Source of the DNA: a virus
Virus record (IMG/VR): IMGVR_UViG_3300044952_000182
Coordinates: 1,578 to 65,577 of that record
Reading direction: 5' to 3' (one strand)
Length of the DNA: 64,000 nucleotides
Shown one piece after another: positions 1-64,000 of this stretch. The notes beneath the pieces are model-generated. The model saw only the letters and a program-made list of their open reading frames with translations. It was not told where the DNA came from and searched no databases. Each line of letters begins with the position of its first letter. Position 1 is the first letter of the stretch. Both the position numbers and the translations under genes were made by a program.

Positions 1-1475
1 TCTTTTACAAAGAAGTCTACATCAAACATCATTCCATTGGTTTGAATTCCTTTTCCTTGAGATGTATTAACTATACCTAAATAAGCTTTCTTGTCTGTAT
101 TAAAGGATTCATTAATAACACCTAAGTCTTTCTCATTTACAACTACATCATATGTGTTATAGAATGCACGTTTGTATCCTAGATCTTGAGCAGCTTTGAA
201 TCCATTATATAAGTTAGTAAGTACAGTGAGAGACTGATTACTATATTTCAATCCATTGATATTCACCTCAGCATAATAGTCATCTGTATGTCTATAGAAT
301 CTGCTGTAATAAGAATGATGTGTTAATGGATTATGTGCATCGTACACATAGTGATCCACCATACGTTGTATCTCCTCGTCCACAGGATAGTGACTGATTA
401 ACATGATGTTTCTACCTAAGGCTTTCATAGAGTTGATAGTATCCTTAGTTAATTGTGCACGAGATTTTAAATTAGGATAGGTGCCTATGATGATAAGTTC
501 TTCATCTTTCTTATCAAGGTTTAATTTTTTGATGATATTAGTAGCATCACTACCAATATCTCCAGTTAAATAAACCATATTCTCTGCATCATTATACTTG
601 TTACAATATACATCTAGGTTGTACATTACTTTGATCAAGTCATCATATTCCATAGCTTCTTTAATAGCAATAGGATTTAACTCCTTGTTACCTCTGTCTC
701 CTTTAGATGGGAAGAAGAATACATCAGAAGCTTCTAAGAACATGTCTACATCATCTCGCTCACCCCACACAACACAGTTGTCTGGTTTGTTAGCCATCAA
801 GGGCTTCCAATATGATTCAAAGTTACCAGCTTGGTTACCTAGGAAATGAAACTTAACCTTGTAGTTCTTAAGTCTTTCTGCTAGTTGGAATGCATAAGCT
901 TGATTCTTTCTAGGTGTAAACAACCCTACAGTTACAAAGTGTTTATAGTCATGCTCTAATCCTAACTTTTCTCTTATAGCATACTGGTTTCTTTCTTTCT
1001 TGTTTACAGGATACTCAATCACTTCTGTAGGTACATTTAATGTAATGTATTGAAATGAATTATATGAGCTAACAAATATAAACTTGTCAGGCAAATAGTA
1101 TTTGTTTTTAGGATTGAATGAACTATCATGTGTAGTTTCTACAATCTTCCATGGCTTCTCTGCATCGTATAGATAGTCAGCACATTCTTCATTCATAAAC
1201 ATCTCTGGAAACTCTTCCATAGAGATTACATCTGGTTTGAACTCTTGCAGAACTTGCAACAGTTCATCATATTTATTCTCTCCTAGTGAATGGAAGTTCT
1301 GATCTCCCACTAGTTTAATTATTCTATTTCTTTGCACAACAAACTGCCATGCTAGGAATGCATACTCTACCACCTTGATATCAAAGTCATTCTGTAGTAG
1401 TTCTACTTTGTTTACTGTTACCTGGGGTGCTCCTCCTGTTGATAGATGAGGAGTGATGATTAATAGTTTCTTCAT
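1..1475 (-). CDS. glycosyltransferase, GT-B fold (GT4/GT1-like); C-terminus beyond window edge
   Basis: Minus-strand frame is open from ATG at 1475-1473 to the window edge, so it is absent from the ORF track. N-terminus MKKLLIITPHLSTGGAPQV matches the Gly-rich N-terminal motif of GT-B glycosyltransferases. ATGA start/stop overlap with the upstream GT9 gene. Confidence 0.5.
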   Translation of the reverse strand, partial: MKKLLIITPHLSTGGAPQVTVNKVELLQNDFDIKVVEYAFLAWQFVVQRNRIIKLVGDQNFHSLGENKYDELLQVLQEFKPDVISMEEFPEMFMNEECADYLYDAEKPWKIVETTHDSSFNPKNKYYLPDKFIFVSSYNSFQYITLNVPTEVIEYPVNKKERNQYAIREKLGLEHDYKHFVTVGLFTPRKNQAYAFQLAERLKNYKVKFHFLGNQAGNFESYWKPLMANKPDNCVVWGERDDVDMFLEASDVFFFPSKGDRGNKELNPIAIKEAMEYDDLIKVMYNLDVYCNKYNDAENMVYLTGDIGSDATNIIKKLNLDKKDEELIIIGTYPNLKSRAQLTKDTINSMKALGRNIMLISHYPVDEEIQRMVDHYVYDAHNPLTHHSYYSRFYRHTDDYYAEVNINGLKYSNQSLTVLTNLYNGFKAAQDLGYKRAFYNTYDVVVNEKDLGVINESFNTDKKAYLGIVNTSQGKGIQTNGMMFDVDFFVK

Positions 1476-2401
1476 ATGTTATTGTTAATTGCGTGAATCA
1501 CCTGCTCTACAGATGGATGACACTCATAAGCTTCTTTCTTCTCTAAGCATCCAATCAGTGGCTGTACAGAGTCTATTGTAGGCCAATACTCAAGAGCATA
1601 TTTCATATTGGATGAACAGTGTAATCCACATGCTCCTCTTACGTATATATGTTTGCTAGTCTTTCTACGTGGTCTACGAAACTCTGGGTTGATAGGAGAT
1701 CCTAATTCAATTATAGGTGTTTCTGTTGTACCTGCTAAATGTAGGATACCTGAGTCCATTGTAATTACAACTGCAGCATCGTTAATCAGATGCCAGCTCT
1801 CAGAGATAGATGTTTGATTCATTAGATTGATAACATTTTGATTATCAATATCATGTACAGGTTTGTTTACATTAAAGAATCCTGTCTCAGAACTATCCTT
1901 ACCTATAGCCACCACTTTGTATCCCCACTTCACTAACTCTTCAGATAGCTTTAGCCAGTTCTCTTGTGACCATGTTCTATTAGGCCAGCTGTTAACAGGA
2001 TGTATTACAGCATACTTCTCATGTACAAAGTTCTTCTTAGGTTCTGTAGGTTTGTAATAACATTCTAGTTCATCTTCTCCAAGCATAAAGCCTAGGTGTA
2101 TGGCATGAAACTGTCTGATGTCCATCATGTTATGCTTCATCTCCACACCACGCTCGTCCTTCTTACCTACTAGATAGAATGAATTATGTACAATGTAATT
2201 ACTTTGTATGTACGTCATGTCTATAGAACTAGCTTTATAGCTCTTCTCTACATAGGGATTCGTTTTAAATAGCTCAGGCATCTGAGAGATGACAGTAATC
2301 TTTCTTTGATATGCATCATGTAGTTTCTTAATGGTGGGGGTGGCACATATCAGGTCTCCCAAACCATTACATTCTTCTAAGTTTAAGCAAACTGGTTTCA
2401 T
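1472..2401 (-). CDS. glycosyltransferase family 9 (heptosyltransferase-like)
   Basis: N-terminal LEECNGLGDLICATP matches the GT9 motif (lGDvvlttP). C-terminal VVITMDSGILHLAGTTETPIIELGSP matches the GT9 signature (DSGpmHLAaA...lfGpt). Confidence 0.75.
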   Translation of the reverse strand: MKPVCLNLEECNGLGDLICATPTIKKLHDAYQRKITVISQMPELFKTNPYVEKSYKASSIDMTYIQSNYIVHNSFYLVGKKDERGVEMKHNMMDIRQFHAIHLGFMLGEDELECYYKPTEPKKNFVHEKYAVIHPVNSWPNRTWSQENWLKLSEELVKWGYKVVAIGKDSSETGFFNVNKPVHDIDNQNVINLMNQTSISESWHLINDAAVVITMDSGILHLAGTTETPIIELGSPINPEFRRPRRKTSKHIYVRGACGLHCSSNMKYALEYWPTIDSVQPLIGCLEKKEAYECHPSVEQVIHAINNNI

Positions 2402-3042
2402 TGTATTGACATTAAAAAATCAGGAGTTGTATAGTCTCTTTTAACTGTTGTATATCCTAGTCTAGCTAAGAAATTTACAGCTGTACTTGTATTGTCCTCT
2501 AACCATATTAGAGGCTTATCTCTTTGTATTAATTTTATCATTCCTTCAAAAGCAGACATCTCATGACCCTCAATATCTATCTTGATAAACTTAACAGGCT
2601 CATCAAACCATACATCATCTAGAGCTAAGACAATGTTCTTATGTGCTCCATTAGGTACAATCTTTACCACACCACTGTTGGAACCATGTCCATCATCAAA
2701 TGAAACAATAGATGTTCTACTACCCACTCCTACATTTATTGCAGATACATCCTTGTATCTTTTTGTGTTTTGCTTTAGAACAGAATAGTTATCTGGATGT
2801 GGTTCAAATGCTATAATCTTTAAGTTAGGGAAGTGGTGTTTAAATTGTACACAATGTCCTCCTATATTAGCCCCAATATCTAACATTAGTCCTGTAGAAG
2901 GGAAATGTTCTTTCCAATCATTAAATAACTGAAATTCCCAGAAATCATTGTATTTAACTATGTCATCTGAGATACATTCAGGACTCTCAAATATAACCAT
3001 AGGTGTATTGTGAATACTTACTATCCTAGTTTCTCGTTTCAT
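2398..3042 (-). CDS. FkbM-family SAM-dependent methyltransferase
   Basis: LDIGANIGGHCVQF ... IIAFEPHPDNYSVLKQN fit the FkbM domain motifs (DiGAniG ... fEP.p..f..L..N). Confidence 0.7.
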   Translation of the reverse strand: MKRETRIVSIHNTPMVIFESPECISDDIVKYNDFWEFQLFNDWKEHFPSTGLMLDIGANIGGHCVQFKHHFPNLKIIAFEPHPDNYSVLKQNTKRYKDVSAINVGVGSRTSIVSFDDGHGSNSGVVKIVPNGAHKNIVLALDDVWFDEPVKFIKIDIEGHEMSAFEGMIKLIQRDKPLIWLEDNTSTAVNFLARLGYTTVKRDYTTPDFLMSIQ

Positions 3043-3075
3043 TTGTTGGTTATTTCCACAAATATACTATCTTTG
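3042..3075 (+). promoter_or_regulatory. Bacteroidota sigma-A type promoter (TTTG -33, TATCTTTG -7)
   Basis: TTTG at 3042-3045 and TAnnTTTG (TATCTTTG) at 3068-3075, 25 nt upstream of ATG 3100. Confidence 0.4.
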
Positions 3076-3099
3076 CTCAAAATAACAAAACGTTTTGCT

Positions 3100-3468
3100 A
3101 TGAAAATTGAAGTTTCTGTAGGAGAAGTAGTAGATAAATGGACTATACTTTCCATCAAAGCCCTGAACATTACAGACAAAGACAAACTAGTTAATGTTTT
3201 CAAAGAAAGAAATTATCTGAATGATGCTGTACATCCTGAGATCTTACATGACCCTATGACTGATGAACTTCTTAAGGTGAACCAGTTTCTTTGGAAGGTG
3301 GAAGATCTTCTAAGAGACTTTGAAAGAGCTAGTAGCTTTGGAGAAGAGTTTGTTGACTTAGCTAGATCTGTCTACAAATTAAATGATCAAAGAGCACATA
3401 TTAAAAAAGAAATTAATATTAAGTATGGCTCTGACTTTGTAGAGGAAAAGTCCTACCAGCCCTACTAA
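3100..3468 (+). CDS. hypothetical protein
   Basis: ORF-track frame 3010..3468 trimmed to ATG 3100 (MKIEVSVGEV) downstream of the promoter; the upstream part overlaps the FkbM gene. Confidence 0.5.
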   Translation: MKIEVSVGEVVDKWTILSIKALNITDKDKLVNVFKERNYLNDAVHPEILHDPMTDELLKVNQFLWKVEDLLRDFERASSFGEEFVDLARSVYKLNDQRAHIKKEINIKYGSDFVEEKSYQPY

Positions 3469-3559
3469 AAAAATATTTGGTAGTTTCAACTTTTTTACCT
3501 AGTTTTGCAATGAAGTAGAATTTAACCTAAATAGGTCAATCTGACCATGTTATACATCC

Positions 3560-3901
3560 ATGTCCTGGGTGTATTTTTATTTACACTCCTTTAAGAAAAT
3601 GATAAAAAGTAACCCTACACTTGAGGCTTTTAAAGTTTGGACATTCCCAACCTTAGTTTCTATATTAGCTATGATGATATGGAATGATGTAAACGAAATC
3701 AAAAGTGACGTCAAAGTCTTAATGGCTCAGTCCAATGTAGACAAGACACGTATAGACAACTTGGAAAGAGTAGTCTATAAAACAGCTGCTTCCTTTCCTA
3801 CTAGAATTCCTATAGAAACAGCAGTATTTAGAGAGATGGCTATACTTCCTAATAACAAATTAATTATAAAAAATGAAAAAGTTCTTTTCAGATCTATTTG
3901 A
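3560..3901 (+). CDS. membrane protein, lysis cassette (holin/antiholin candidate)
   Basis: One hydrophobic TM segment (FPTLVSILAMMIW); sits at the head of the lysis cluster. Confidence 0.4.
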   Translation: MSWVYFYLHSFKKMIKSNPTLEAFKVWTFPTLVSILAMMIWNDVNEIKSDVKVLMAQSNVDKTRIDNLERVVYKTAASFPTRIPIETAVFREMAILPNNKLIIKNEKVLFRSI

Positions 3902-4115
3902 TGATAGCAACTCAATTAATGAGAAAGCTATAATTGGTTTCGCTTCTTTTATAATCATGATCATTTTTGCAATAGTGGACATCATCACTGGCACTATGCA
4001 TAAAGAGTTGGTTGTCAATGAGTTCATATATGATTCATTCAAAATATTAACTATAGCTTGTTTTGGTATTGCTTCTGTAGACAAATGGATAAACAAAATA
4101 AAAGGTAATGAATAA
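3873..4115 (+). CDS. holin candidate (two TM segments)
   Basis: 80 aa with two hydrophobic helices (AIIGFASFIIMIIFAIVDIITG; FKILTIACFGIASV) and a charged C-terminus, immediately upstream of the endolysin region. Confidence 0.45.
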   Translation: MKKFFSDLFDDSNSINEKAIIGFASFIIMIIFAIVDIITGTMHKELVVNEFIYDSFKILTIACFGIASVDKWINKIKGNE

Positions 4116-4704
4116 AATTCTAGTATTTGTTGTAATGGTTTTACTGTTTACAGTGACTCTTCAACATAAAGGATGCGTTAGCTCTCAGATAAAAGCTGAT
4201 ACTGTAACGTTACACGATACAACCTGGCAAGTTCATGACTCATTGATTGTCAAGAAGTTAAAGGTTAAAGAGATAATACATGACACACTACCTGCAGAAT
4301 ATATTGCAGACACAAACTACCCTAAGCTAAAAGCACAATATGATGCTTTAGTCTTTGCTCATTTAGCAAAGAAAGTCTATACTGACACTGTCAAGATAGA
4401 TACCTTAGGCTATGTAGCTGTAGCTGATACAGTACATAAAAACGAGCTACAGAACAGATCTTATAAATACAACTATAAGATCCCAACAATTACTGTGACA
4501 ACCATCATCACTAAGCAAGCTCCTCCTAAGGGAGCTCTATTTATTGGTGGTGGATTCACTAACACAAAACAACTAGAACTTCAAACCATACAGGGGGGAG
4601 TGCTTTACAAGACTAAGAAAGATAAGATATTTGGTTTACATATTGGAATAAACAACAATAGTCAAGTTATATATGGGGTGAGTAGCTATTGGAAAATTAA
4701 ATAA
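4108..4704 (+). CDS. secreted/lipoprotein-like protein
   Basis: N-terminal signal peptide MNKILVFVVMVLLFTVTLQHKGC. Confidence 0.4.
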   Translation: MNKILVFVVMVLLFTVTLQHKGCVSSQIKADTVTLHDTTWQVHDSLIVKKLKVKEIIHDTLPAEYIADTNYPKLKAQYDALVFAHLAKKVYTDTVKIDTLGYVAVADTVHKNELQNRSYKYNYKIPTITVTTIITKQAPPKGALFIGGGFTNTKQLELQTIQGGVLYKTKKDKIFGLHIGINNNSQVIYGVSSYWKIK

Positions 4705-4706
4705 CT

Positions 4707-5312
4707 ATGAACGTTGATAAATTAAAAGGGCACATTCCTGATGGGGTGATTGCTCAAATCCCTAGTGTAGTAGATAAGTTTGAGATCAATACACCTTTAC
4801 GTTTAGCCCATTTTCTAGCACAAACAGGACATGAATCTGGCGGATTCAAAGCTGTTACAGAAAACTTAAACTATGGAGCTGCAGGTCTTTCAAGTATCTT
4901 TAAGAAATACTTTACACCTGAAAGTGCTAAAGAGTATGAACGCAAACCTGAAAAAATAGCAAATATAGTATATGCAAACAGAATGGGGAATGGTAACCAG
5001 GCTTCTGGTGAAGGTTATAAATTTCGTGGAAGGGGTTTTATCCAACTAACAGGAAAGGATAACTACGCTGCTTTTGACAAGACAGTTGATGATGATATCA
5101 TAGCTAACCCAGATCTTGTAGCTACAAAGTACCCACTTTTATCTGCAGCTTGGTTCTTCCATAAGAATGGATTACACAAGATTGCTGACGAGGGGGCTAC
5201 AGATGCAGTGGTAACCAAGGTAACCAAGCGTGTTAATGGTGGAACAATTGGTCTACCAGATCGTATTAAACACTTTAATGAATACAATAATCTTTTAAAT
5301 GGTAGTATATAA
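4707..5312 (+). CDS. endolysin, glycoside hydrolase family 19 (chitinase-like lysozyme)
   Basis: LAHFLAQTGHESGGF ... YKFRGRGFIQLTGKDNY match the GH19 catalytic-core motifs (lAaFlAQ.gHESggf ... RGRGpiQLTg..NY). Confidence 0.85.
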   Translation: MNVDKLKGHIPDGVIAQIPSVVDKFEINTPLRLAHFLAQTGHESGGFKAVTENLNYGAAGLSSIFKKYFTPESAKEYERKPEKIANIVYANRMGNGNQASGEGYKFRGRGFIQLTGKDNYAAFDKTVDDDIIANPDLVATKYPLLSAAWFFHKNGLHKIADEGATDAVVTKVTKRVNGGTIGLPDRIKHFNEYNNLLNGSI

Positions 5313-5614
5313 TGGCAGCGAAAAAAGAAACAAATATATCAGCAAACCCTTTACCTATATCGTTTAAGGAGTTTGCTAAAAACCCAATAGTGGGCACCCT
5401 TTTCTTGGTGCTCATTGCTATTTCATACCTATACGTAGATGTTCGTACAACATTTAAAGAGCAGGCAACTTCTCAAAACGTACGTATAGATAAGGTAGAA
5501 ACTAGATTAGATAAGGTACAGGAAGCTTTGAGAGTTAGCGATAGCACTAAAGCTGTGACTACCACTCAGTTACAAACATTACAACAATTAGGGGCCATAA
5601 AAAAGTTACACTAA
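5312..5614 (+). CDS. i-spanin candidate (N-terminal TM, coiled-coil periplasmic domain)
   Basis: N-terminal TM segment IVGTLFLVLIAISYLYV followed by a charged helical region; directly after the endolysin. Confidence 0.45.
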   Translation: MAAKKETNISANPLPISFKEFAKNPIVGTLFLVLIAISYLYVDVRTTFKEQATSQNVRIDKVETRLDKVQEALRVSDSTKAVTTTQLQTLQQLGAIKKLH

Positions 5615-5943
5615 TGAGAACATTAGCATTTTTAATATTAATAAGTCTATATGGATGTCAATATACCACAGCTCAGCACGTTGATGAAACAGTTAAAGAA
5701 GATAAAGAGTTTGAACTTCTACTTAACAAAGTTTCAGAAAATAATAAAAATAGTGCAGCTATACAAGAAGGTGCTACCAAAGCCCAAACAAAAATAGTAA
5801 ACCAAGCTGTTAACCAAATTGTATCGTTAAAAGCAGAAGTTAGTTCATTAAAATCTGAATTAAATGATGTTAAAAGTAAACTTGATAGTAATCTTACTGA
5901 CACTGGTGTCAAATTTAAGTTATTGCCAGTATCCAATCGTTAA
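5614..5943 (+). CDS. o-spanin candidate (lipoprotein)
   Basis: Signal peptide plus lipobox-like LISLYGC; small periplasmic coiled-coil protein; ATGA-type overlap with the preceding gene. Confidence 0.45.
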   Translation: MRTLAFLILISLYGCQYTTAQHVDETVKEDKEFELLLNKVSENNKNSAAIQEGATKAQTKIVNQAVNQIVSLKAEVSSLKSELNDVKSKLDSNLTDTGVKFKLLPVSNR

Positions 5944-6253
5944 GAAAATAGGCAATGACTCTGTTGTAATAATGACCTTAAAACAGGCAACAACTATAAA
6001 TAGTACGTTTCAATCTAATCAAAATACAATTGATTCGTTGAAAACACATGTCTATATAAAAGATAGCATTATAAATAATAAAAAAACAACATATGATAGC
6101 TTATACAAAATTACAGATCAGTATAAGATAAGATATGATGAAAGACTAAACATGCGTATTCCTGTTCCTAAAGATAATAGTGGATGGGACTTTGCTCAAA
6201 AAATGGTATTGATTTTTGTTATAATATTACAATTCTCCACTATAAAACAATAA
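5864..6253 (+). CDS. hypothetical membrane/lipoprotein-like protein
   Basis: N-terminal signal-like VILLTLVSNLSYC and a C-terminal TM segment. Overlaps the 3-prime 80 nt of the o-spanin candidate in another frame, so the start is uncertain. Confidence 0.3.
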   Translation: MMLKVNLIVILLTLVSNLSYCQYPIVKKIGNDSVVIMTLKQATTINSTFQSNQNTIDSLKTHVYIKDSIINNKKTTYDSLYKITDQYKIRYDERLNMRIPVPKDNSGWDFAQKMVLIFVIILQFSTIKQ

Positions 6254-6254
6254 A

Positions 6255-6377
6255 ATGGCAAAAGCAGTAGGTAACTCAAGAAAAATCTCCTTTGGAAAAC
6301 GTAAAAGAGGCAAAGCTTCTAAGTTTAAAGGTCCTAAGGACAAGGCTACTAAGCCTTACAACAGGCAGGGTAAGTAA
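6255..6377 (+). CDS. small lysine-rich basic protein (40 aa)
   Basis: MAKAVGNSRKISFGKRKRGKASKFKGPKDKATKPYNRQGK; below the track's size cutoff; composition resembles the K-rich family at 9.8-11.7 kb. Confidence 0.35.
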   Translation: MAKAVGNSRKISFGKRKRGKASKFKGPKDKATKPYNRQGK

Positions 6378-6400
6378 TAACTAAAAAAGTTAAAACACAT

Positions 6401-6466
6401 ATAACTAAAATTGTTATTGTAAATTATTGACACTCATTGTTAATATTAAAAAGTAACATATCTTTG
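6401..6466 (+). promoter_or_regulatory. promoter region with conserved 20-nt motif ATAACTAAAATTGTTATTGT and a TATCTTTG -7 box
   Basis: TTG at 6437-6439 and TATCTTTG at 6459-6466, 19 nt before ATG 6486. The 20-mer at 6401-6420 recurs at 46671-46690. Confidence 0.4.
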
Positions 6467-6485
6467 AACATTAATTTTTTATATC

Positions 6486-6656
6486 ATGGCAATACCATCA
6501 AGACAGATAGGTTGGAGTACAACAGATAACTTGCTTTGGCAGATATCTAAGCAATTAGAATATTTGACACAAGTAACAGCTAATTGTTGTCCTACAACAA
6601 CTACCACAACTACAGTAGCACCAACAACTACTACTACGACTACACCTGCTCCTTAA
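6486..6656 (+). CDS. small CC-polyThr protein (shortest member of the mucin-like paralog family)
   Basis: MAIPSRQIGWSTTDNLLWQISKQLEYLTQVTANCCPTTTTTTTVAPTTTTTTTPAP. Shares the CC-(NY-V)-P-Thr-run and the terminal TPAP with ORFs 7702..7989 and 8002..8808. Confidence 0.4.
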   Translation: MAIPSRQIGWSTTDNLLWQISKQLEYLTQVTANCCPTTTTTTTVAPTTTTTTTPAP

Positions 6657-6681
6657 TAAAGAGAAACCAACAAACTACATA

Positions 6682-7699
6682 TATGAAGGATCTTAAATTT
6701 ATCTGTGCACAGCCAGATGATGTATACTACACATGGCAGGTACATCTATGGTTGGAAAGTTTAAAGAAGCTTGGGCACTCAGACAAAGCAATTGTTTTAG
6801 TGTACACACCTAGTTTCAGAGAATATAATGGTAAATGGGAGAAGATAATGGAGCTGTATCCAGAAGCACAATTTGCTTTCTACAAGGATACAGGAGATGT
6901 TAGTCAGTATTTAGGAGTATATATTCCTATTCTACGTCCTTATTGCTTAATGAGATATTTCCAGGACAATCCTGAGATGGTATCCAAAGCAGTTTTTTAT
7001 TGTGATTGTGATGTAATCTTCACAGAAAAGTTTGATATAGATAAATTTAAAGATGATGATATAAACTACTTGTCTGATACAAACAGTTATATCAACGCTT
7101 CATATTTTGATAGTAAAGACAGAGATGTTCTACCAGACAAACTGGAAGAGTATAAGACTAGAGATGTCTTAGCTGAGCTTACAAGCTTAGTGGGTATAAC
7201 AAGAGAGATAGCTGAAGCTAACAATGATCATTCAGGAGGAGCTCAATACTTCCTTAAAAATATAGACAGTGAGTTTTGGAAGAAGGTGATGAATGACTGT
7301 ATATTAATACGTGTCTACCTTCAGAATATAAACAAACAGTTCTTCAAAAATGAAGACAAAGGGTTCCAAAGCTGGTGTGCAGATATGTGGGCTGTGCTAT
7401 GGAACGTTTGGCTTAGAGAGAAAGAAACAAAGAACATTCCTGAATTGGAATTCTGTTGGTCTTCAGATCCTATAGAGAAGCTAGATAGAACAACATTGTT
7501 ACATAATGCAGGGATTACAGGACAGAACACAATGGGTTATCCTGCCTTTTATAAAGGAGCATATCACGCTGGTAAAGATCCTTTTAAAGATACACAACTA
7601 TATGTAGTACGCACTGATGAGAAGTCTAAGAAATATGCAACTCATTACTATGTAAAACAACTATTAGAAATAAAAAACAAATATAATATAAATTATTAA
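6682..7699 (+). CDS. hypothetical protein (possible GT-A-like nucleotide-sugar transferase, DCD motif)
   Basis: Track ORF 6584..7699 trimmed to ATG 6682 (MKDLKFICAQPDD), because the upstream part overlaps the small ORF 6486..6656. Contains YCDCDVIF (DxD-like). No firm family assignment. Confidence 0.45.
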
Positions 7700-7701
7700 T
7701 T

Positions 7702-7989
7702 ATGGCCCAGAATACTAATCGCCCTCTCAAAGCTTATGTACGCTTTGATGGTACTGGAAGAATCGTTCCAAGCAGCCTAATCTTAAGAAGAAAGAAACCC
7801 AAGGTTGGTAAGTGGGTAGAGATCCCAGCTTATGAATGTTGCAATTACGTTCCTACAACAACTACTACAACCAGTAGTACAAGCACTAGCACAACTACTA
7901 GTACATCTACTAGCACAAGTACAAGTACAACAACAACTACTACGACTGCTACTCCAACAACAACAACAACAACAACTCCTGCACCTTAA
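7702..7989 (+). CDS. Thr/Ser-rich mucin-like protein (conserved N-domain + poly-Thr/(ST)n tail)
   Basis: N-terminus NRPLKAYVRFDGTGRIV...ECCNYVPTTTTTTSSTSTS is a paralog of the N-terminus of 8002..8808; ends ...TTTTTTPAP. Confidence 0.55.
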   Translation: MAQNTNRPLKAYVRFDGTGRIVPSSLILRRKKPKVGKWVEIPAYECCNYVPTTTTTTSSTSTSTTTSTSTSTSTSTTTTTTTATPTTTTTTTPAP

Positions 7990-8001
7990 AATTAAATAAA
8001 C

Positions 8002-8808
8002 ATGGCAAATAGCAACAATAGATTAAAAGCATATGTACGTTACGATGGTACAGGACGTGTCATAGCAGGTAGCTTGATCTTACAAAGATTCAAACCACAA
8101 GTGGGTAATTGGGTGGAGATAGATGCAAATGAGTGTTGTAATTATGTTCCAACAACCACTACAACTACGTCTTCTACTAGTACTAGTACAAGCACTTCTA
8201 CAAGCACTTCTACAAGTACTACAACAAGTACATCTACTTCTACAAGTACAAGCACTTCTACAAGTACAACAACAACAACAACAACAGCTGCACCAGCAGA
8301 ATGTCCTGAAGATTATACAATTGGTCAAGCTGCATTAGGTGGTAAAATTGCATACATCCTACAATCAGGTGACCCAGGATATGATTCAAATTTACAACAA
8401 GGATTAGTAGCTACAATAGCAGATATTTCAACAGGAGCAGCATGGGGATGTTTTGGAACAGCAATTGCAGGAGCAGATGGTACAGCTATTGGTACTGGTA
8501 ATCAAAATACTATAGATATTATGGCTGGTTGTGCTACAGCAGGTATTGCAGCTAGACTTTGTGGTGATTTAGTTCAGGGAGGATATTCTGATTGGTATTT
8601 ACCTAGTCAAGATGAATTAAATAAATTATACCTAAATAGAGTAGCTATTGGTGGTTTTACGAATAACGGCTATTGGAGTTCTACGGAGTACGCCACCATC
8701 TTCGCGTGGGACCAGAATTTCCTCACTGGCAGTCAGGACGGCAGCGATAAGACCTTCCCAAACTATGTTCGCGCCATTAGGGCTTTTGCATGTACAATTC
8801 CTAGATAA
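8002..8808 (+). CDS. mucin-like linker protein with C-terminal DUF1566 (Lcl C-terminal / Fib_succ_major-type) domain
   Basis: Same N-domain as 7702..7989, then a long T/(ST)n linker. C-terminal GGYSDWYLPSQDELNKLYLN...GYWSSTEY...YVRAIRAF matches the DUF1566 signature (DWRLPt.dEL..L ... yWSSt ... vRcVR). Confidence 0.65.
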   Translation: MANSNNRLKAYVRYDGTGRVIAGSLILQRFKPQVGNWVEIDANECCNYVPTTTTTTSSTSTSTSTSTSTSTSTTTSTSTSTSTSTSTSTTTTTTTAAPAECPEDYTIGQAALGGKIAYILQSGDPGYDSNLQQGLVATIADISTGAAWGCFGTAIAGADGTAIGTGNQNTIDIMAGCATAGIAARLCGDLVQGGYSDWYLPSQDELNKLYLNRVAIGGFTNNGYWSSTEYATIFAWDQNFLTGSQDGSDKTFPNYVRAIRAFACTIPR

Positions 8809-11848: not shown

Positions 11849-11882
11849 AAAAAAGCCTCCCTTAAAAAAGGAGGCTTTTTTT
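11849..11882. terminator. bidirectional rho-independent terminator
   Basis: AAAAAGCCTCC-cttaaaaaa-GGAGGC-TTTTTTT: a 6-bp GC stem with an A-run upstream and a T-run downstream. Lies between the convergent plus-strand K-rich operon and the minus-strand gene 11881..12417. Confidence 0.6.
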
Positions 11883-12417
11883 ATGATACTAATGAATTGT
11901 ATACAGATAGTATCTTGTTTATGTAATGTTTATTCTTTGCTTTTTTATAACAGTTCTCAGCAAATACACCATCAGCATCTCTCCTTGATAGAACAAATCT
12001 TTCTTGATTCACTATAGATGTATGTACAATGAAGTTATGGCTATCTACATAGCTTAACTTAATTATGTTTCCATACAATCTATGTACACCACTGTTCCAC
12101 AGTTGATCAAATGATATAAAATCATTGTTTAAGTCTTTGATATTGTCCCACAACTCTGGATGCATAGTTGTATCATCATCGTTGAAATATATCCAACCCT
12201 CTGTTACTAGATTAATTGCTAGGTTTCTTTGTGCATTTCCACATACGCTTTTTACATCCTTTATACAATAAGCTTCACATTCAGGAATATCAGTTGGAAT
12301 AGTCTCTGAATCAAACACAACAATCCATCTGTAATTTTCTTTAGGTATGTTAATGCTTTCTGCAATTCTATGTAAAAAATGAGGTCTACTACAAGGAGTG
12401 ATAATATTTAAGAACAT
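11881..12417 (-). CDS. glycosyltransferase-like protein (GT-A-type, DDD motif)
   Basis: MFLNIITPCSRPHFL...WIYFNDDDTTMHPELW resembles the N-terminal beta strand and DxD region of GT-A fold transferases. Confidence 0.4.
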   Translation of the reverse strand: MFLNIITPCSRPHFLHRIAESINIPKENYRWIVVFDSETIPTDIPECEAYCIKDVKSVCGNAQRNLAINLVTEGWIYFNDDDTTMHPELWDNIKDLNNDFISFDQLWNSGVHRLYGNIIKLSYVDSHNFIVHTSIVNQERFVLSRRDADGVFAENCYKKAKNKHYINKILSVYNSLVS

Positions 12418-13061
12418 GGTTTGTCATTTCTATGTAAAACTAAAAGCTTATCATTGTCCCAACCTGGAGAAAACTTTAACTCATGATTAGCCATAATAAA
12501 TGTAGCAGATGAGAAGTATTCTTTAATGTGATCCATGGCTTCCATGTATCTGTTTTCATCTTCTCTAAGGAAGATATCTTCGATGATGATTATACCTCCT
12601 GGCTTAACACATTTGTATGCTATGTTTAAAAATCTAATCTGATCTTCAAACACGTGTGTAGAATCTTCTATGATTATGTCAAAGAAGTTATTTTTGTTGA
12701 ACACATTGTTAAGAGACTGTTCACTGGTAACATCTACATGAGTGTATGTAGCATTGTTAAGATTATCACGTATTCCTTTTTGCAACTTATCATCATGATA
12801 TTCATAACCAAACAATGTTGCATTAGGGAAGTACTCTCTCCAACATAACATAGAATGATTATCTAATATACCCACTTCACCTATTGTAATCTCTTTGTAA
12901 CGAAGATTTGAAAACAATAAGTTATATATGGAAGTGTAAGCATGTCTATGTAAATGAGGATGGTTATGATAAGGACACTTGTCTGTAGGATACTTAACAG
13001 CAAGTTTACACAAGTCTGTATTAGAATGTGTAGAGTCAATACTTAGTCTATTTATTTGCAT
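12408..13061 (-). CDS. class I SAM-dependent methyltransferase
   Basis: ITIGEVGILDNHSM (motif I-like) ... CVKPGGIIIIEDI (post-II); Rossmann-fold methyltransferase pattern. Confidence 0.65.
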   Translation of the reverse strand: MQINRLSIDSTHSNTDLCKLAVKYPTDKCPYHNHPHLHRHAYTSIYNLLFSNLRYKEITIGEVGILDNHSMLCWREYFPNATLFGYEYHDDKLQKGIRDNLNNATYTHVDVTSEQSLNNVFNKNNFFDIIIEDSTHVFEDQIRFLNIAYKCVKPGGIIIIEDIFLREDENRYMEAMDHIKEYFSSATFIMANHELKFSPGWDNDKLLVLHRNDKPCS

Positions 13062-13803
13062 TGATAAAATCTTTTAACAATTCTGAATAATCTTTATCCC
13101 AATGAGGATTTAGTTTAACTTCTCCTGTAGGAATCTTTCCTAAACGTCTTTCAGATTCAATGTGAGCACTGTGTCTTTGTATAGCATTGAGTTTTTTAGG
13201 ATGGTCTGTACCTTCTCCACTCATGTGGTATCCTCTTCCTCCCCACATGTAAAACCAGCTAGCTTCTTCTTTAGGTGGAGTAGCAAATAGTCTACCTCCA
13301 TGTTTATGTAGTCTTTCAATGAAAGTCATATCATATCCAGCATTTTCAAGAGGATGTCCCCCTATTGCTTTCCAAGCTGCTTTTCTAAACACAAGACCAG
13401 AATTACCTATCCAACCAACTTGCTCAATACCTGTAATGTGACACAACACACCTATTTGCCAATGAAGTATGTTAACTTCTTCTGTCATGTATTTAGCTAC
13501 ATTCTTTAAATGGTGTGGTAGAGCTACGTCATCATCGTCCCATTGACATATAATATCTCCTTGACACAGTTCTGTAGCAAAGTTTTCTTTCTCTCCTATG
13601 GTCTCAAAGGTCTTAACTAGGTTAACTATCTTAACTTGAGGATGCTCAAATATAAGAGTTTGTAAGGCATAGTCATTTACTATGATAAGTTCGCACTTAT
13701 CTGCAGGGTAGTCCTGCTTGAGGAAAGACTCAATGCTCTCCTCAAGCGTACTAACCCTTCCATAAGTTATACACTTACATGATATAAATGGATGTGAGTT
13801 CAT
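13048..13803 (-). CDS. glycosyltransferase family 2
   Basis: ISCKCITYGRVSTLEESIESFLKQDYP..CELIIVNDYA and the QWDDDDV DxD-type motif are typical of GT2. Confidence 0.7.
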   Translation of the reverse strand: MNSHPFISCKCITYGRVSTLEESIESFLKQDYPADKCELIIVNDYALQTLIFEHPQVKIVNLVKTFETIGEKENFATELCQGDIICQWDDDDVALPHHLKNVAKYMTEEVNILHWQIGVLCHITGIEQVGWIGNSGLVFRKAAWKAIGGHPLENAGYDMTFIERLHKHGGRLFATPPKEEASWFYMWGGRGYHMSGEGTDHPKKLNAIQRHSAHIESERRLGKIPTGEVKLNPHWDKDYSELLKDFINANK

Positions 13804-62010: not shown

Positions 62011-62031
62011 TTTATCTAAACTAATAATAAA

Positions 62032-64000
62032 ATGGCTTGCAATCCTGGCGATCCTTGTTATAACGCATATTATCAACCTAGTGAAAACTGTGGTTCTATC
62101 CCTTGTGAAACTACAGCAGATCGTGTTATATATAATGGACCTAACCTTCCTTGTTCAGGAATTCAAACTGGAGAAAACTTAGACTGTGCTCTATCAAAAA
62201 TAGATGATGCTCTTTGTAATGGTGTTGTTGGTCTTAATGGTACCTCTGGTACTTCAGGTATATCTGGCTCGTCTGGCATATCTGGAACCAATGGAACATC
62301 TGCAACTTCTGGTGTTACAGGTCCTTCTGGAACAAATGGTACTTCTGGTTCATCTGGAATTACAGGTACATCTGGAACATCATCAAGTGGTTCTAGTGGT
62401 ACTAGTGGCTCTTCTGGTAGAGCTGGTTCAAATGGCACTAGTGGTTCTGCTGGTGTGAGTGGCACAGGTGGTACAAGTGGTACTTCAGGTACTTCTGCTA
62501 CTAGTGGTACTTCAGGTACTGATGGTTCAAATGGAACTTCTGCTACTTCTGGAACAGATGGAAGTAGTGGAACTAGTGGTAGAGATGCCACAGCAGGAAC
62601 ATCTGGTCAAGATGGAACATCTGGTACAAGTGCAAGTTCTGGTACCTCTGCTTCTAGTGGATTAACTGGTACAGCTGGAACATCTGGAACATCTGGCACA
62701 TCAGCATCTTCTGGAACTGCAGGTCAAGATGGAGATAGATATTTAACAAGTTCTACAACTTCTTTATTAATAGGAACAGGATCAAAAAGTTTAACAGTAG
62801 GAACAGGGTTAGCATATAGTGTTGCACAGACAGCTATCATAGTATATGATGTAAGTAATACAATGCAAGGAACTGTTACCTCTTATAATAGTGGAACAGG
62901 TGCATTAGTAATTAATGTCACCACCATAGCAGGTGCAGGAACCTATGCTGTATGGACAGTAAATCTGTTTGGTGCATCTGGTGGTAATGGTACTTCTGGA
63001 ATAGCTGGTACTTCTGGCACAGCTGGTACGTCTGCTTCTTCAGGTTCATCTGGTTCTTCAGGGTCATCTGGTACTTCAGGTACCACAGGTACATCTGGAA
63101 CATCTGCTTCTTCAGGTAGCTCAGGAAGTTCAGGTAGCTCAGGATCAACAGGTACATCAGGTACTGCTGCCACTTCTGGTACAAGTACTGGTACAAGTGG
63201 TACAAGTGGTGTAAATGCAACTTCAGGAACTGCAGGTATAAATGGTTCTTCTGGAACTGCAGGTACAAGCGGAGCGAGTGTGACAGGTCCTTCAGGATCT
63301 TCAGGTACCTCAGGGTCATCAGGATCATCAGGCTCCTCTGGATCTTCTGGATCTTCAGGTACTTCTGCTTCTTCTGGTTCAAGTGGATCAAGTGGATCAA
63401 GTGGATCATCTGGTTCTAGTGGGTCAAGTGGTACAGCTGGAGCTAATGGTGCTGTTGGTTCTTCAGGAACATCAGGATCTTCAGGATCTTCAGGAACAAG
63501 TGGAGCTAATGGAACAAGTGGTTCATCTGGATCTTCTGGATCTTCTGGTTCAAGTGGCACTAGTGGTGCTAATGGAGCAAATGGTTCATCTGGTACTTCT
63601 GGAGCATCTGGTACAAGTGGTTCTTCAGGATCAAGTGGATCAAGTGGATCAAGTGGATCTAGTGGAACATCTGGAGCTAGTGGTACATCTGGATCATCTG
63701 GTAGTTCTGGTTCTAGTGGCTCTTCTGGATCTTCAGGAACATCTGGAGCTAATGGTGGTAATGGTTCCTCTGGAACATCTGGTGCTACTGGTGGTCCTGG
63801 ATCACCAGGAACAAGTGGGTCGTCTGGTTCTAGTGGTTCTTCTGGATCTTCTGGAACATCTGGTGCTACTGGTGGTCCTGGAGGAAATGGTTCTAGTGGT
63901 ACAAGTGGAGCTAACGGAGGGAATGGTAGCAGTGGAACAAGTGGAACAAGTGGTGCAAGTGGTTCTTCTGGAACTGCAGGTACATCTGGTGCGAATGGAG
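62032..64000 (+). CDS. collagen-like (Gly-X-Y) tail fibre protein; 3-prime end beyond window
   Basis: Frame 62032 onward has no stops. N-terminal Cys-rich region, then >500 aa of GTS/GSS/GTA triplets. These are interrupted by a ~75-aa non-collagenous segment (DRYLTSSTTSLLIGTG…VWTVNLF). Confidence 0.7.
   Translation, partial: MACNPGDPCYNAYYQPSENCGSIPCETTADRVIYNGPNLPCSGIQTGENLDCALSKIDDALCNGVVGLNGTSGTSGISGSSGISGTNGTSATSGVTGPSGTNGTSGSSGITGTSGTSSSGSSGTSGSSGRAGSNGTSGSAGVSGTGGTSGTSGTSATSGTSGTDGSNGTSATSGTDGSSGTSGRDATAGTSGQDGTSGTSASSGTSASSGLTGTAGTSGTSGTSASSGTAGQDGDRYLTSSTTSLLIGTGSKSLTVGTGLAYSVAQTAIIVYDVSNTMQGTVTSYNSGTGALVINVTTIAGAGTYAVWTVNLFGASGGNGTSGIAGTSGTAGTSASSGSSGSSGSSGTSGTTGTSGTSASSGSSGSSGSSGSTGTSGTAATSGTSTGTSGTSGVNATSGTAGINGSSGTAGTSGASVTGPSGSSGTSGSSGSSGSSGSSGSSGTSASSGSSGSSGSSGSSGSSGSSGTAGANGAVGSSGTSGSSGSSGTSGANGTSGSSGSSGSSGSSGTSGANGANGSSGTSGASGTSGSSGSSGSSGSSGSSGTSGASGTSGSSGSSGSSGSSGSSGTSGANGGNGSSGTSGATGGPGSPGTSGSSGSSGSSGSSGTSGATGGPGGNGSSGTSGANGGNGSSGTSGTSGASGSSGTAGTSGANG

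What the first reader, a model, noticed from the sequence alone, without database searches (positions are those of the whole stretch)
1..3042. Glycan-modification cluster I: GT-B glycosyltransferase, GT9 heptosyltransferase-like protein and FkbM methyltransferase
Three co-directional, translationally coupled genes (ATGA overlaps) encode:
- a GT-B glycosyltransferase;
- a clear GT9 (heptosyltransferase-family) protein, matching both the GDLICATP and DSGILHLAG signatures;
- an FkbM-type methyltransferase.

GT9 enzymes normally build the LPS inner core, so a phage-borne copy is unusual. It could modify host surface glycans (superinfection exclusion). Alternatively, together with the Ser/Thr-rich proteins elsewhere in the window, it could glycosylate and methylate virion proteins.
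Basis: partly seen in the sequence, partly recalled or inferred. Interest (0 to 1): 0.6.

Follow-up and report, generated by a model that had tools for sequence, protein, structure and literature searches.

The report
Phage fibre-glycosylation gene cluster (partial)
The three genes are real and are the first part of a larger phage sugar-adding operon that includes a relative of the bacterial enzyme that puts heptose on adhesin proteins; it most likely decorates the phage's own serine/threonine-rich fibres rather than the host's lipopolysaccharide.

Summary
Observation confirmed. On the minus strand lie an FkbM methyltransferase (3042-2398), a 309-aa GT9-family protein (2401-1472) and a GT4/GT-B glycosyltransferase (1475 to the window edge), joined by two ATGA overlaps. 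The GT4 gene is cut by the window: a near-identical contig shows it is 884 aa. That contig also shows a second GT4 and a TibC/Aah-type protein O-heptosyltransferase (BAHT, above NCBIfam's equivalog cut-off), then a convergent operon with a sulfation module and a giant fibre gene.

The 309-aa GT9 is neither an LPS heptosyltransferase nor a canonical BAHT. It is a barrel-less relative with the BAHT four-cysteine 'iron finger' and a WaaF-like donor motif. In other sequences its family is fused in one polypeptide with BAHT (25 of 150 representatives), GT4 (21) and FkbM (6) domains.

The module is syntenic in 44 IMG/VR viral contigs. In 33 of 45 loci, and also in a megaphage and a Microcystis phage, it lies beside (Gly-Ser/Thr-Ser)n collagen-like fibre genes.

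Best reading (about 0.55): soluble, cytoplasmic O-glycosylation and methylation of virion fibres. Everything here is computational.

The parts
2398..3042 (-). FkbM-family SAM-dependent methyltransferase (214 aa). First gene of the operon. SAM-binding motif LDIGANIGGH at residues 54-63 (window 2883-2854).
   Evidence: PF05050 3.9e-16 and TIGR01444 1.2e-21, both above their cut-offs. phrog_8156 'methyltransferase' 6e-24. PDB 2py6 6.6e-7. Motif position.
1472..2401 (-). GT9-family GT-B glycosyltransferase (309 aa) of a BAHT-related clade that lacks the N-terminal beta-barrel. Catalytic LGD with D16 (window 2359-2336). Donor motif DSGILHLAG (1756-1730). Invariant Cys4 knuckle C258/C262/C285/C294 (1630-1520).
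   Evidence: PF01075 4.2e-17. All NCBIfam equivalogs are below cut-off. Invariant residues. The Cys residues align with the TibC iron finger. Foldseek returns GT9 structures and TibC.
1..1475 (-). First 491 codons of an 884-aa multidomain glycosyltransferase. It has a GT4 domain (about residues 1-310, E-x7-E at 265-273, window 683-657) and the start of an uncharacterised middle domain. The C-terminal GT-A-like domain lies outside the window.
   Evidence: PF00534 2.8e-10. Full length comes from the near-identical contig L001. The middle domain is homologous to the Mel-JY01 fusion protein.
3100..3468 (+). Divergently transcribed DUF6165 protein (122 aa). It is the most constant neighbour of the GT core in related phage contigs. 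Its function is unknown.
   Evidence: PF19662 5.8e-12. Present beside the cluster in nearly all IMG/VR loci. No PDB relative.
6683..7699 (+). A further probable glycosyltransferase (338 aa) with a GT-A fold and an invariant D108-x-D110. It lies between two poly-Thr genes. It belongs to PHROG 4417, listed as 'unknown function'.
   Evidence: AF2 pLDDT 92. All top Foldseek PDB hits are GT-A enzymes: UGGT, glycogenin and ABO transferases. Invariant residues.
6486..6656 (+). Small ORF (56 aa) ending in a poly-Thr tail. Candidate acceptor.
   Evidence: Translation. Called as a gene on related contigs.
7702..7989 (+). 95-aa protein consisting of an N-terminal module and a (Ser/Thr)n tail. Candidate acceptor.
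   Evidence: A homologue is found in L020.
8002..8808 (+). 268-aa protein with the same N-terminal module, a (Ser-Thr)n linker and an Lcl_C lectin-like domain. Candidate acceptor or fibre.
   Evidence: PF07603 7.7e-11. Ser/Thr stretch.
62020..64000 (+). Collagen-like (Gly-Ser/Thr-Ser)n fibre protein that runs off the window end. It directly follows the tail-fibre gene of the structural module. Candidate acceptor.
   Evidence: Pfam Collagen 7e-56. Triplet composition. Structural module. Its N-terminal module is homologous to the fibres that abut the GT cluster in L008 and L010-L013.

Best explanation
The three genes are the promoter-proximal part of a five-gene, start/stop-overlapping operon: FkbM methyltransferase, BAHT-like GT9, an 884-aa multidomain GT4, a second GT4, and a TibC/Aah-type protein O-heptosyltransferase. 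The operon encodes a soluble, cytoplasmic protein O-glycosylation pathway for the phage's own fibre proteins.

Proposed mechanism:
1. The TibC-type enzyme primes Ser/Thr residues of repetitive fibre proteins with a heptose from host ADP-heptose. The candidate fibres are the (Gly-Ser/Thr-Ser)n collagen-like fibres, the poly-Thr linker proteins, and a giant fibre with autotransporter-head-like repeats.
2. The 309-aa GT9 and the GT4 and GT-A domains extend the glycan. The GT9 has the same catalytic Asp and Cys4 knuckle as the TibC-type enzyme but no beta-barrel, and its donor motif is WaaF-like.
4. In this phage a neighbouring sulfotransferase and APS-kinase module may add sulfate.

Shown:
- the family and fold assignments;
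- operon continuity;
- domain fusions of these families;
- conserved synteny next to fibre genes.

Inferred:
- that the acceptor is a virion protein;
- the order of the steps;
- that heptose is the sugar;
- that the sulfation module belongs to the same pathway.
For: 1. **A bona fide BAHT sits in the same operon.** It lies just beyond the window start.
   - It scores 235 bits on TIGR04414 against an equivalog cut-off of 200.
   - It matches TibC 4rap at 6.6e-46, with D110, T226, K230, W305 and all four iron-finger Cys conserved.
   - JGI annotates its homologues the same way.
2. **The 309-aa GT9 aligns with the BAHT catalytic domain over 256 columns.** hhalign gives 86% probability and E 5e-6, with the four Cys and a His aligned. 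Its best TM-scores are to TibC, at 0.58-0.60.
3. **Rosetta-stone fusions link the families.** Of 150 cluster representatives of the GT9_309 family, 25 carry a BAHT domain, 21 the GT4 domain, 8 the GT-A-like C-domain and 6 an FkbM domain. The commonest order is GT9-GT4-BAHT, the same as the phage gene order.
4. **The core order is conserved.** The order GT9, GT4(884), GT4(337), BAHT plus DUF6165 is kept in 44 IMG/VR viral contigs whose BAHT identity is 47-83%.
5. **The module sits beside fibre genes.**
   - (Gly-Ser/Thr-Ser)n collagen-like genes of up to 3196 aa lie next to the module in 33 of 45 loci.
   - The same is seen independently in megaphage LR756501 and in Microcystis phage Mel-JY01.
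   - In this phage the convergent operon starts with a fibre of more than 1632 aa that matches the UspA1 autotransporter head at 3.7e-15.
6. **All enzymes are predicted to be soluble.** No flippase, polymerase, ligase or polyprenyl-phosphate transferase was seen in the cluster.
7. **There is an organisational precedent.** Cluster O mycobacteriophages have an O-methyltransferase followed by three tandem glycosyltransferases that modify capsid and tail-tube proteins (PMC11600133, citing Freeman et al. 2023).
Against: - No experiment supports this. No isolate exists and no glycan has been observed.
- The BAHT gene, the giant fibre and the sulfation genes are outside the window. They are inferred from a contig with 4 mismatches in 12.4 kb.
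- Adjacency to fibre genes may be inherited synteny within one lineage. About six loci with long flanks have no collagen-like gene nearby, although other structural or fibre-like genes are there.
- Known BAHT acceptors are right-handed beta-helices of classical autotransporters, not collagen-like or poly-Thr sequences.
- The phage BAHT lacks the beta-hairpin thumb and R286 of TibC.
- The C-lobe of the 309-aa GT9 is most similar in sequence to LPS heptosyltransferase II: TIGR02195 1.3e-14 and 1psw 7e-9.
- FkbM is absent from many related loci, and the GT9 is absent from L010. Neither is therefore obligatory for the core pathway.
- The AF2 model of the GT9 is only moderate (pLDDT 69), and it is poor in the Cys region.
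Confidence: 0.55

Rival explanations
1. Host envelope glycan remodelling. The enzymes act on host LPS core, O-antigen or capsule precursors at the cytoplasmic face during infection. The purpose would be to block superinfection or to stop progeny adsorbing to debris.
For: - GT9 and GT4 are the classical LPS core families.
- The best single-family sequence hit of the 309-aa protein is heptosyltransferase II, through its C-lobe.
- FkbM relatives methylate O-antigens; there is a weak RfbT hit at 0.01.
- The sulfotransferase weakly resembles NoeE, which sulfates a glycolipid.
- The host is Gram-negative, judged from a spanin pair and a lipobox.
Against: - All LPS equivalog scores are 2.5- to 12-fold below cut-off.
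- A protein-specific BAHT lies in the same operon, and the families occur as fusions.
- There are no membrane or export components.
- The phage looks lytic (rIIA/rIIB, own replication genes), whereas seroconversion is typical of temperate phages.
- The module is consistently placed next to virion fibre genes.
Confidence: 0.15
2. Glycosylation of host surface proteins. The BAHT module modifies host autotransporter-type adhesins or other surface proteins that serve as receptors, which changes adsorption.
For: All characterised BAHTs (Aah, TibC) modify bacterial autotransporter adhesins (PMC4358343). The phage enzyme is an equivalog by score.
Against: - In bacteria the BAHT gene lies beside its substrate gene. 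Here, and in two unrelated phage lineages, the adjacent genes with repeats are phage fibres.
- A five-enzyme elaboration with methylation is more than mono-heptosylation of a host adhesin needs.
Confidence: 0.1
3. DNA hypermodification. The transferases attach sugars to modified bases of the phage genome to evade restriction.
For: Phage glycosyltransferases are often DNA-modifying. PMC12619734 summarises Pyle et al. 2024 on diverse DNA glycans.
Against: - No pyrimidine hydroxymethylase or related enzyme was found among the roughly 30 window ORFs scanned. The scan was not exhaustive.
- GT9 and BAHT enzymes have no known DNA activity.
- The module travels with fibre genes, not with replication genes.
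Confidence: 0.03

Closest known systems
Bacterial autotransporter heptosyltransferases (BAHT: Aah/TibC; TIGR04414; PDB 4rap/4rb4)
   Same: - GT9-type GT-B catalytic domain.
- Catalytic Asp in an LGD motif.
- Four-cysteine iron-finger insertion near the C-terminus.
- Soluble cytoplasmic enzymes encoded next to a repetitive adhesin-like substrate gene.
- The operon partner (367 aa, outside the window) passes the equivalog cut-off.
   Different: - The window's 309-aa protein has no N-terminal beta-barrel.
- Its first Cys pair is CxxxC, not CxxC.
- It has His where TibC has W305, giving a WaaF-like DSGxxHLAG motif.
- It scores only 37.7 bits against the 200-bit cut-off.
- The phage BAHT itself lacks the beta-hairpin thumb that TibC needs for its dodecamer.
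- The setting is a phage, with four or five further transferases, instead of a single enzyme adding single heptoses.
LPS inner-core heptosyltransferases WaaC/WaaF/WaaQ (CAZy GT9)
   Same: Same Pfam family (PF01075). Same catalytic Asp position. Same DSG-x-x-H-L-A nucleotide-sugar motif. The C-lobe aligns with WaaF (1psw, 7e-9).
   Different: All equivalog scores are far below cut-off and only the C-lobe aligns. There is an extra Cys4 knuckle. The genomic partners are a protein heptosyltransferase and fibre genes, not Kdo or lipid A genes.
Virion glycosylation operons of Cluster O/F mycobacteriophages (Freeman et al. 2023, as described in PMC11600133 and PMC12619734)
   Same: Phage-encoded. An O-methyltransferase gene is followed by tandem glycosyltransferase genes. 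The targets are virion proteins with Ser/Thr-rich extensions. Modification is cytoplasmic.
   Different: - The enzyme families differ: here GT9/BAHT with GT4 and an FkbM-type methyltransferase.
- The host is Gram-negative.
- The presumed targets are fibres (collagen-like and poly-Thr), not capsid or tail-tube C-termini.
- There is an additional sulfation module.
- Nothing is demonstrated experimentally here.
Glycosylated collagen-like surface fibres such as Bacillus anthracis BclA (own knowledge, not tested here)
   Same: Collagen-like Gly-X-Thr repeats carry O-linked oligosaccharides that end in a methylated sugar.
   Different: BclA is a bacterial exosporium protein with rhamnose/anthrose glycans made by unrelated enzymes. 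The phage repeats are Gly-Ser/Thr-Ser and almost free of Pro.

Membership tests
CAZy GT9 / Pfam PF01075 (for the 309-aa protein) | Profile match above the gathering threshold | tested here: met
   62.7 bits against a cut-off of 22, but only residues 122-254 are matched.
CAZy GT9 / Pfam PF01075 (for the 309-aa protein) | GT-B two-lobe fold most similar to solved GT9 enzymes | tested here: met
   AF2 model (pLDDT 69, pTM 0.68). The top 30 Foldseek PDB hits are all GT9 enzymes: 3tov, 1psw, TibC and WaaC.
CAZy GT9 / Pfam PF01075 (for the 309-aa protein) | N-terminal catalytic Asp (WaaC D13 / TibC D110) and the C-lobe DSGxxHxA donor motif | tested here: met
   D16 in LGD and M215-DSGILHLAG-224 are invariant in 29 homologues.
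CAZy GT9 / Pfam PF01075 (for the 309-aa protein) | Transfers heptose from ADP-heptose | not testable with these tools
   Needs an enzyme assay.
LPS heptosyltransferase I/II/III (WaaC, WaaF, WaaQ equivalogs) | Full-length match above the NCBIfam equivalog cut-off | tested here: not met
   TIGR02195 54 against 134.6. TIGR02193 42.9 against 185.3. TIGR02201 43.7 against 170.2. PRK10916 48.9 against 569. Only the C-lobe aligns.
BAHT (Aah/TibC, TIGR04414), tested on the window's 309-aa protein | Equivalog score of at least 200 bits | tested here: not met
   37.7 bits, although the match spans residues 2-251.
BAHT (Aah/TibC, TIGR04414), tested on the window's 309-aa protein | N-terminal beta-barrel domain (TibC residues 1-97) | tested here: not met
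   The protein starts 15 residues before the catalytic Asp. Some 400-aa homologues do carry an N-terminal extension of about 95 aa.
BAHT (Aah/TibC, TIGR04414), tested on the window's 309-aa protein | Four-Cys iron-finger insertion (TibC C339/C342/C358/C370) | tested here: met
   C258, C262, C285 and C294 are invariant. They align column for column with the TibC and phage-BAHT cysteines in MAFFT and hhalign. Metal binding was not tested.
BAHT (Aah/TibC, TIGR04414), tested on the window's 309-aa protein | Sugar-binding residues K230 and W305 of TibC | tested here: inconclusive
   K230 corresponds to R142, a conservative change that is invariant. W305 corresponds to H221, as in WaaF.
BAHT (Aah/TibC, TIGR04414), tested on the 367-aa operon partner outside the window | Equivalog score, catalytic Asp, Cys4, T226/K230/W305, beta-hairpin thumb | tested here: met
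   235.4 bits against 200. TibC matches at 6.6e-46 with Asp, Thr, Lys, Trp and all four Cys conserved. Exceptions: the thumb segment is deleted and R286 is not conserved.
FkbM methyltransferase family (TIGR01444 / PF05050) | Profile match above cut-off and a SAM-binding glycine-rich motif | tested here: met
   77.7 bits against 37.7 and 60.1 against 22.7. Motif LDIGANIGGH at residues 54-63. PDB 2py6 at 6.6e-7.
GT4 / Glycos_transf_1 (PF00534) for the truncated first gene | Profile match above cut-off and an E-x7-E motif in the C-lobe | tested here: met
   40.5 bits against 26.4 at residues 166-277. ELNPIAIKE at residues 265-273. No PDB sequence relative was found.
Phage virion-glycosylation systems (mycobacteriophage type) | Glycans demonstrably attached to virion proteins | not testable with these tools
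   Needs virions or heterologous co-expression plus mass spectrometry.

The most novel reading that the evidence does not exclude
A previously undescribed module is widespread among uncultivated aquatic phages, including a cyanophage and a 735-kb megaphage. In it, a TibC-type protein O-heptosyltransferase and a barrel-less paralogue (the window's GT9) work together with GT4 and GT-A enzymes, an FkbM methyltransferase and a sulfation module. Together they would turn (Gly-Ser/Thr-Ser)n collagen-like and poly-Thr virion fibres into methylated, sulfated, proteoglycan-like filaments. Bacterial adhesin-glycosylation machinery would thus have been repurposed for phage adsorption organelles.
Probability: 0.4. 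Interest if true: 0.85.

Novelty: new variant of a known kind. Interest (0 to 1): 0.68.

Why it matters
- **Scope of virion glycosylation.** In bacteriophages it is so far documented essentially for mycobacteriophages. A second, mechanistically different system would extend it to abundant environmental phages of Gram-negative hosts. This one is based on autotransporter-type heptosyltransferases and aimed at fibres.
- **Possible consequences.** Heavily glycosylated, methylated or sulfated fibres would affect host recognition, adhesion to mucus or particles, protease resistance and immune visibility.
- **Enzymology.** The module defines a large uncharacterised GT9 clade: 3405 cluster representatives at E ≤ 1e-3 and 109 at E ≤ 1e-30. 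It also gives a testable partner and substrate context for that clade.
- **Annotation.** It gives a probable function to PHROG 4417. It also flags a mis-annotated fibre gene in Microcystis phage Mel-JY01.

Tried and rejected
- **Search for a close phage relative.** Megablast of window 1-8000 against 50,697 phage records found nothing. tblastn of the GT9 found only weak partial hits in Campylobacter phages and bacterial WGS records. The DNA polymerase is at most 32% identical to any isolate. No cultured relative could be used.
- **Are the ~400-aa GT9_309 homologues with N-terminal extensions true BAHTs?** NCBIfam gave no TIGR04414 match above 31 bits, so I rejected that idea.
- **Anti-phage defence reading.** PADLOC gave no hit for any cluster protein.
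- **Promoter and terminator scan of 1-4200.** Counts were at chance level (21 against 19.6 expected). The scan is not informative, and the host may use non-sigma-70 consensus promoters.
- **PDB sequence searches.** They were uninformative for DUF6165, PHROG 4417 and the 884-aa GT4.
- **Is the PHROG 4417 protein homologous to the N-terminal GT-A domains of the giant fusion proteins?** No sequence match was found.
- **Direct-repeat search around the poly-Thr genes.** It found only low-complexity coding repeats.
- **Literature.** No paper links BAHT or TibC-type enzymes to phages. Freeman et al. 2023 is not held in the library.
- **Full length of the giant fibre.** It could not be recovered, because the contig ends inside the gene.


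Full report
**1. The observation**

Window 1-3042 holds three co-directional genes on the minus strand.

- **FkbM methyltransferase (3042..2398, 214 aa).** It matches PF05050 at 60.1 bits (cut-off 22.7) and TIGR01444 at 77.7 bits (cut-off 37.7). It also matches phrog_8156 and PDB 2py6. The SAM motif LDIGANIGGH lies at residues 54-63.
- **GT9-family protein (2401..1472, 309 aa).** It matches PF01075 at 62.7 bits (cut-off 22).
- **GT4/GT-B glycosyltransferase (1475..1).** It matches PF00534 at 40.5 bits (cut-off 26.4). An E-x7-E motif lies at residues 265-273.
- **Overlaps.** The ATGA start/stop overlaps at 2401-2398 and 1475-1472 are read directly.

The window is from a phage. It carries rIIA/rIIB, ribonucleotide reductase, a family-B DNA polymerase, terminase, portal, major head and tail-fibre genes. 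G+C is about 34%. No close relative exists among 50,697 phage records.

**2. The cluster is larger than the finding**

The exact 309-aa protein is found on 16 metagenomic contigs. The longest locus, L001, differs from the window by 4 mismatches over 12,401 nt. I treat it as the same phage.

L001 shows the following:

- The GT4 gene is 884 aa. It has a GT4 domain, an uncharacterised middle domain and a C-terminal GT-A-like domain.
- With overlapping stops and starts it is followed by a second GT4 (337 aa) and a 367-aa GT9 protein.
- The 367-aa protein scores 235.4 bits on TIGR04414, 'autotransporter strand-loop-strand O-heptosyltransferase'. The equivalog cut-off is 200.
- It matches TibC (PDB 4rap) at 6.6e-46. 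The catalytic Asp (TibC D110), T226, K230, W305 and all four iron-finger cysteines are conserved. These residues are defined in PMC4358343.
- A convergent operon runs towards this one. It encodes a fibre of more than 1632 aa, two small proteins, a GT9-like 289-aa protein, a sulfotransferase, an APS-kinase-like protein, an HxGH nucleotidyltransferase-like protein and a DUF2061 membrane protein.
- The last 609 residues of the fibre match the head of the trimeric autotransporter adhesin UspA1 at 3.7e-15.

**3. What the 309-aa GT9 is**

It is not an LPS heptosyltransferase equivalog. All such models score far below cut-off and align only with the C-lobe.

It is not a canonical BAHT either. It scores 37.7 bits against the 200-bit cut-off, and it has no N-terminal beta-barrel.

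Features it shares with BAHTs:

- Four C-terminal cysteines and the following histidine are invariant in its family. They align column for column with the TibC iron finger (C339, C342, C358, C370), both in a MAFFT alignment and in a profile-profile comparison.
- hhalign gives 86% probability, E 5e-6 and 256 aligned columns, pairing residues 9-309 with BAHT residues 98-366.
- The AF2 model (pLDDT 69) finds only GT9 structures at the top. The best TM-scores are to TibC, at 0.58-0.60.

Features it shares with WaaF: its donor motif is DSGxxHLAG, with His where TibC has W305.

I therefore place it in a distinct, uncharacterised GT9 clade related to BAHTs. The clade is large: 3405 cluster representatives at E ≤ 1e-3 and 109 at E ≤ 1e-30.

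**4. Functional coupling of the three genes with the BAHT**

- **Domain fusions.** Among the best 150 representatives of the GT9_309 family, 72 are multidomain proteins of at least 450 aa. Of the 150, 25 contain a BAHT-type domain, 21 the GT4 domain of the 884-aa protein, 8 its C-terminal GT-A-like domain, 6 an FkbM domain and 5 the middle domain. The recurrent order is GT9_309, GT4, BAHT, which is the phage gene order.
- **Synteny.** In IMG/VR, 44 viral contigs carry a BAHT homologue at 47-83% identity. The order GT9_309, GT4(884), GT4(337), BAHT plus the divergent DUF6165 gene is conserved. In some contigs GT4(337) and BAHT are fused.
- **Accessory parts.** FkbM and the sulfation genes are present in only some loci and change position, so they are accessory. 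GT9_309 is missing in one locus, L010.

**5. The likely acceptor**

- **Collagen-like fibre genes next to the module.** Such genes lie next to the module in 33 of 45 loci. They reach 3196 aa with about 950 triplets, and the triplets are almost purely Gly-(Ser/Thr)-Ser.
- **The same pairing in two unrelated phage lineages.**
  - Megaphage LR756501 has a GT4-GTA-MID protein and a GT4-BAHT fusion beside a 699-aa GTS-collagen ORF.
  - Microcystis phage Mel-JY01 has a GT4-X-TibC fusion of 1226 aa. It lies 1.7 kb downstream of an unannotated ORF of at least 1016 aa with 176 GTS/GSS triplets.
- **Loci without collagen-like genes.** These still have fibre-like or structural genes next to the module.
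- **Candidates inside the window.**
  - A (GTS)n collagen-like ORF at 62020 to beyond 64000 matches Pfam Collagen at 7e-56. It directly follows the tail-fibre gene. Its N-terminal module is homologous to the fibres that abut the cluster in related phages.
  - Three poly-Thr or Ser-Thr proteins lie at 6486-8808. One of them has an Lcl_C domain.
  - These three flank a 338-aa PHROG 4417 protein. Its high-confidence model (pLDDT 92) has a GT-A glycosyltransferase fold and an invariant DxD.
- **Cellular location.** None of the transferases has a predicted membrane segment, and the cluster encodes no export or ligase functions. This fits modification of proteins in the cytoplasm before virion assembly.

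**6. Mechanism proposed (inferred)**

1. The BAHT primes Ser/Thr of the fibre repeats with heptose from host ADP-heptose. The host is Gram-negative, judged from the spanin pair and lipobox in the neighbouring lysis cassette.
2. GT9_309 and the GT4 and GT-A domains extend the glycan.
3. FkbM caps it by O-methylation.
4. The sulfotransferase, supplied by the APS-kinase-like protein, may sulfate it.

The closest organisational precedent is in Cluster O mycobacteriophages. There an O-methyltransferase gene is followed by three tandem glycosyltransferase genes, which modify capsid and tail-tube proteins (PMC11600133; also PMC12619734).

**7. Rivals**

- **Host LPS or capsule remodelling (0.15).** It is favoured by the family names and the WaaF-like C-lobe. 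It is disfavoured by the sub-threshold scores, the BAHT partner, the lack of membrane components and the fibre neighbourhood.
- **Modification of host autotransporter-type proteins (0.1).** It fits BAHT biology, but it does not explain the conserved pairing with phage fibre genes.
- **DNA glycosylation (0.03).** It lacks any supporting enzyme among the ORFs scanned.

**8. Caveats**

- Everything is computational.
- The key partner genes lie outside the finding and outside the window.
- Adjacency is not proof of a substrate relationship.
- Known BAHT acceptors are beta-helices, not collagen-like repeats.
- The phage BAHT lacks the beta-hairpin thumb and R286 of TibC.
- The GT9 model is weak in the Cys region.

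**9. Verdict**

- **Observation:** confirmed.
- **Interpretation:** partly supported. The families are right. The LPS framing is not supported. The virion-protein alternative is favoured.
- **Novelty:** a new variant of a known kind, namely phage virion glycosylation built on BAHT/GT9 chemistry. No paper linking BAHTs to phages was found.
- **Prevalence in sequenced phages:** only 4 of 50,697 phage records carry a BAHT homologue.

Noticed in passing
window 6683-7699 (+): The PHROG 4417 'unknown function' protein folds with high confidence (pLDDT 92) as a GT-A glycosyltransferase. Its best PDB matches are the UGGT catalytic domain, glycogenin and ABO transferases. It has an invariant D108-x-D110 and lies between two poly-Thr genes.
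   Followed up: yes
window 6486-6656, 7702-7989, 8002-8808 (+): Three genes encode poly-Thr or (Ser-Thr)n tracts. Two of them share an N-terminal module with a Cys-Cys pair. The third ends in an Lcl_C (Legionella collagen-like protein C-terminal) domain. They look like mucin-like whiskers.
   Followed up: partly
window 62020-64000 (+), runs off the window end: Collagen-like ORF made of Gly-Ser/Thr-Ser triplets, directly after the tail-fibre gene (60817-62010). It explains the jump in G+C to 45% in the last 2 kb. Its N-terminal module matches the fibres that abut the GT cluster in related phages.
   Followed up: partly
window 11881-13803 (-): A second small glycan-related pair: a GT2 glycosyltransferase (13048-13803, PF00535 4.5e-11) overlapping a class-I methyltransferase (12408-13061).
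   Followed up: no
L001 15659-17488 (outside the window, beyond coordinate 1): Sulfation module: a sulfotransferase (PF13469 1.5e-20), an APS-kinase-like P-loop protein, a 128-aa HxGH nucleotidyltransferase-like protein and a DUF2061 membrane protein. The set moves as a unit to different positions in related phage contigs. It is not resolved whether the nucleotidyltransferase makes APS or ADP-heptose.
   Followed up: partly
L001 19100-20930 (outside the window): Giant fibre of more than 1632 aa, cut by the contig end. Its 14-residue Gly-rich repeats match the head of the trimeric autotransporter adhesin UspA1 (3pr7, 3.7e-15). It is followed by a C-terminal globular domain. The homologue in L024 (more than 2714 aa) adds collagen repeats and a Peptidase_S74 chaperone domain.
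   Followed up: partly
L007 (Microcystis phage Mel-JY01, PP395634.1) 2-3049 (+) and 4750-8430 (+): A plus-strand ORF of at least 1016 aa with 176 GTS/GSS triplets is not annotated. Opposite-strand CDSs are annotated in its place. The neighbouring 1226-aa protein is labelled 'methyltransferase FkbM', but it scans as a GT4 domain, an unknown region, the TibC N-terminal domain and a GT9 (BAHT) domain.
   Followed up: partly
L001 14578-15681 (phage BAHT): The phage TibC-type enzyme has a deletion where TibC carries the beta-hairpin thumb (TibC residues ~258-272). TibC needs the thumb for dodecamer assembly. The phage enzyme also lacks R286, so its oligomeric state may differ from TibC.
   Followed up: no
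window 3100-3468 (+): The DUF6165 protein is the most faithful neighbour of the GT core across phage contigs, usually divergent or adjacent. It has a weak similarity to DUF4254. No structural or functional clue was found.
   Followed up: partly
window 3560-5943 (+): Lysis cassette next to the cluster: small membrane proteins, a GH19 endolysin (4707-5312), an i-spanin-like protein (5312-5614) and an o-spanin-like lipoprotein with an LYGC lipobox (5614-5943). This points to a Gram-negative host.
   Followed up: no
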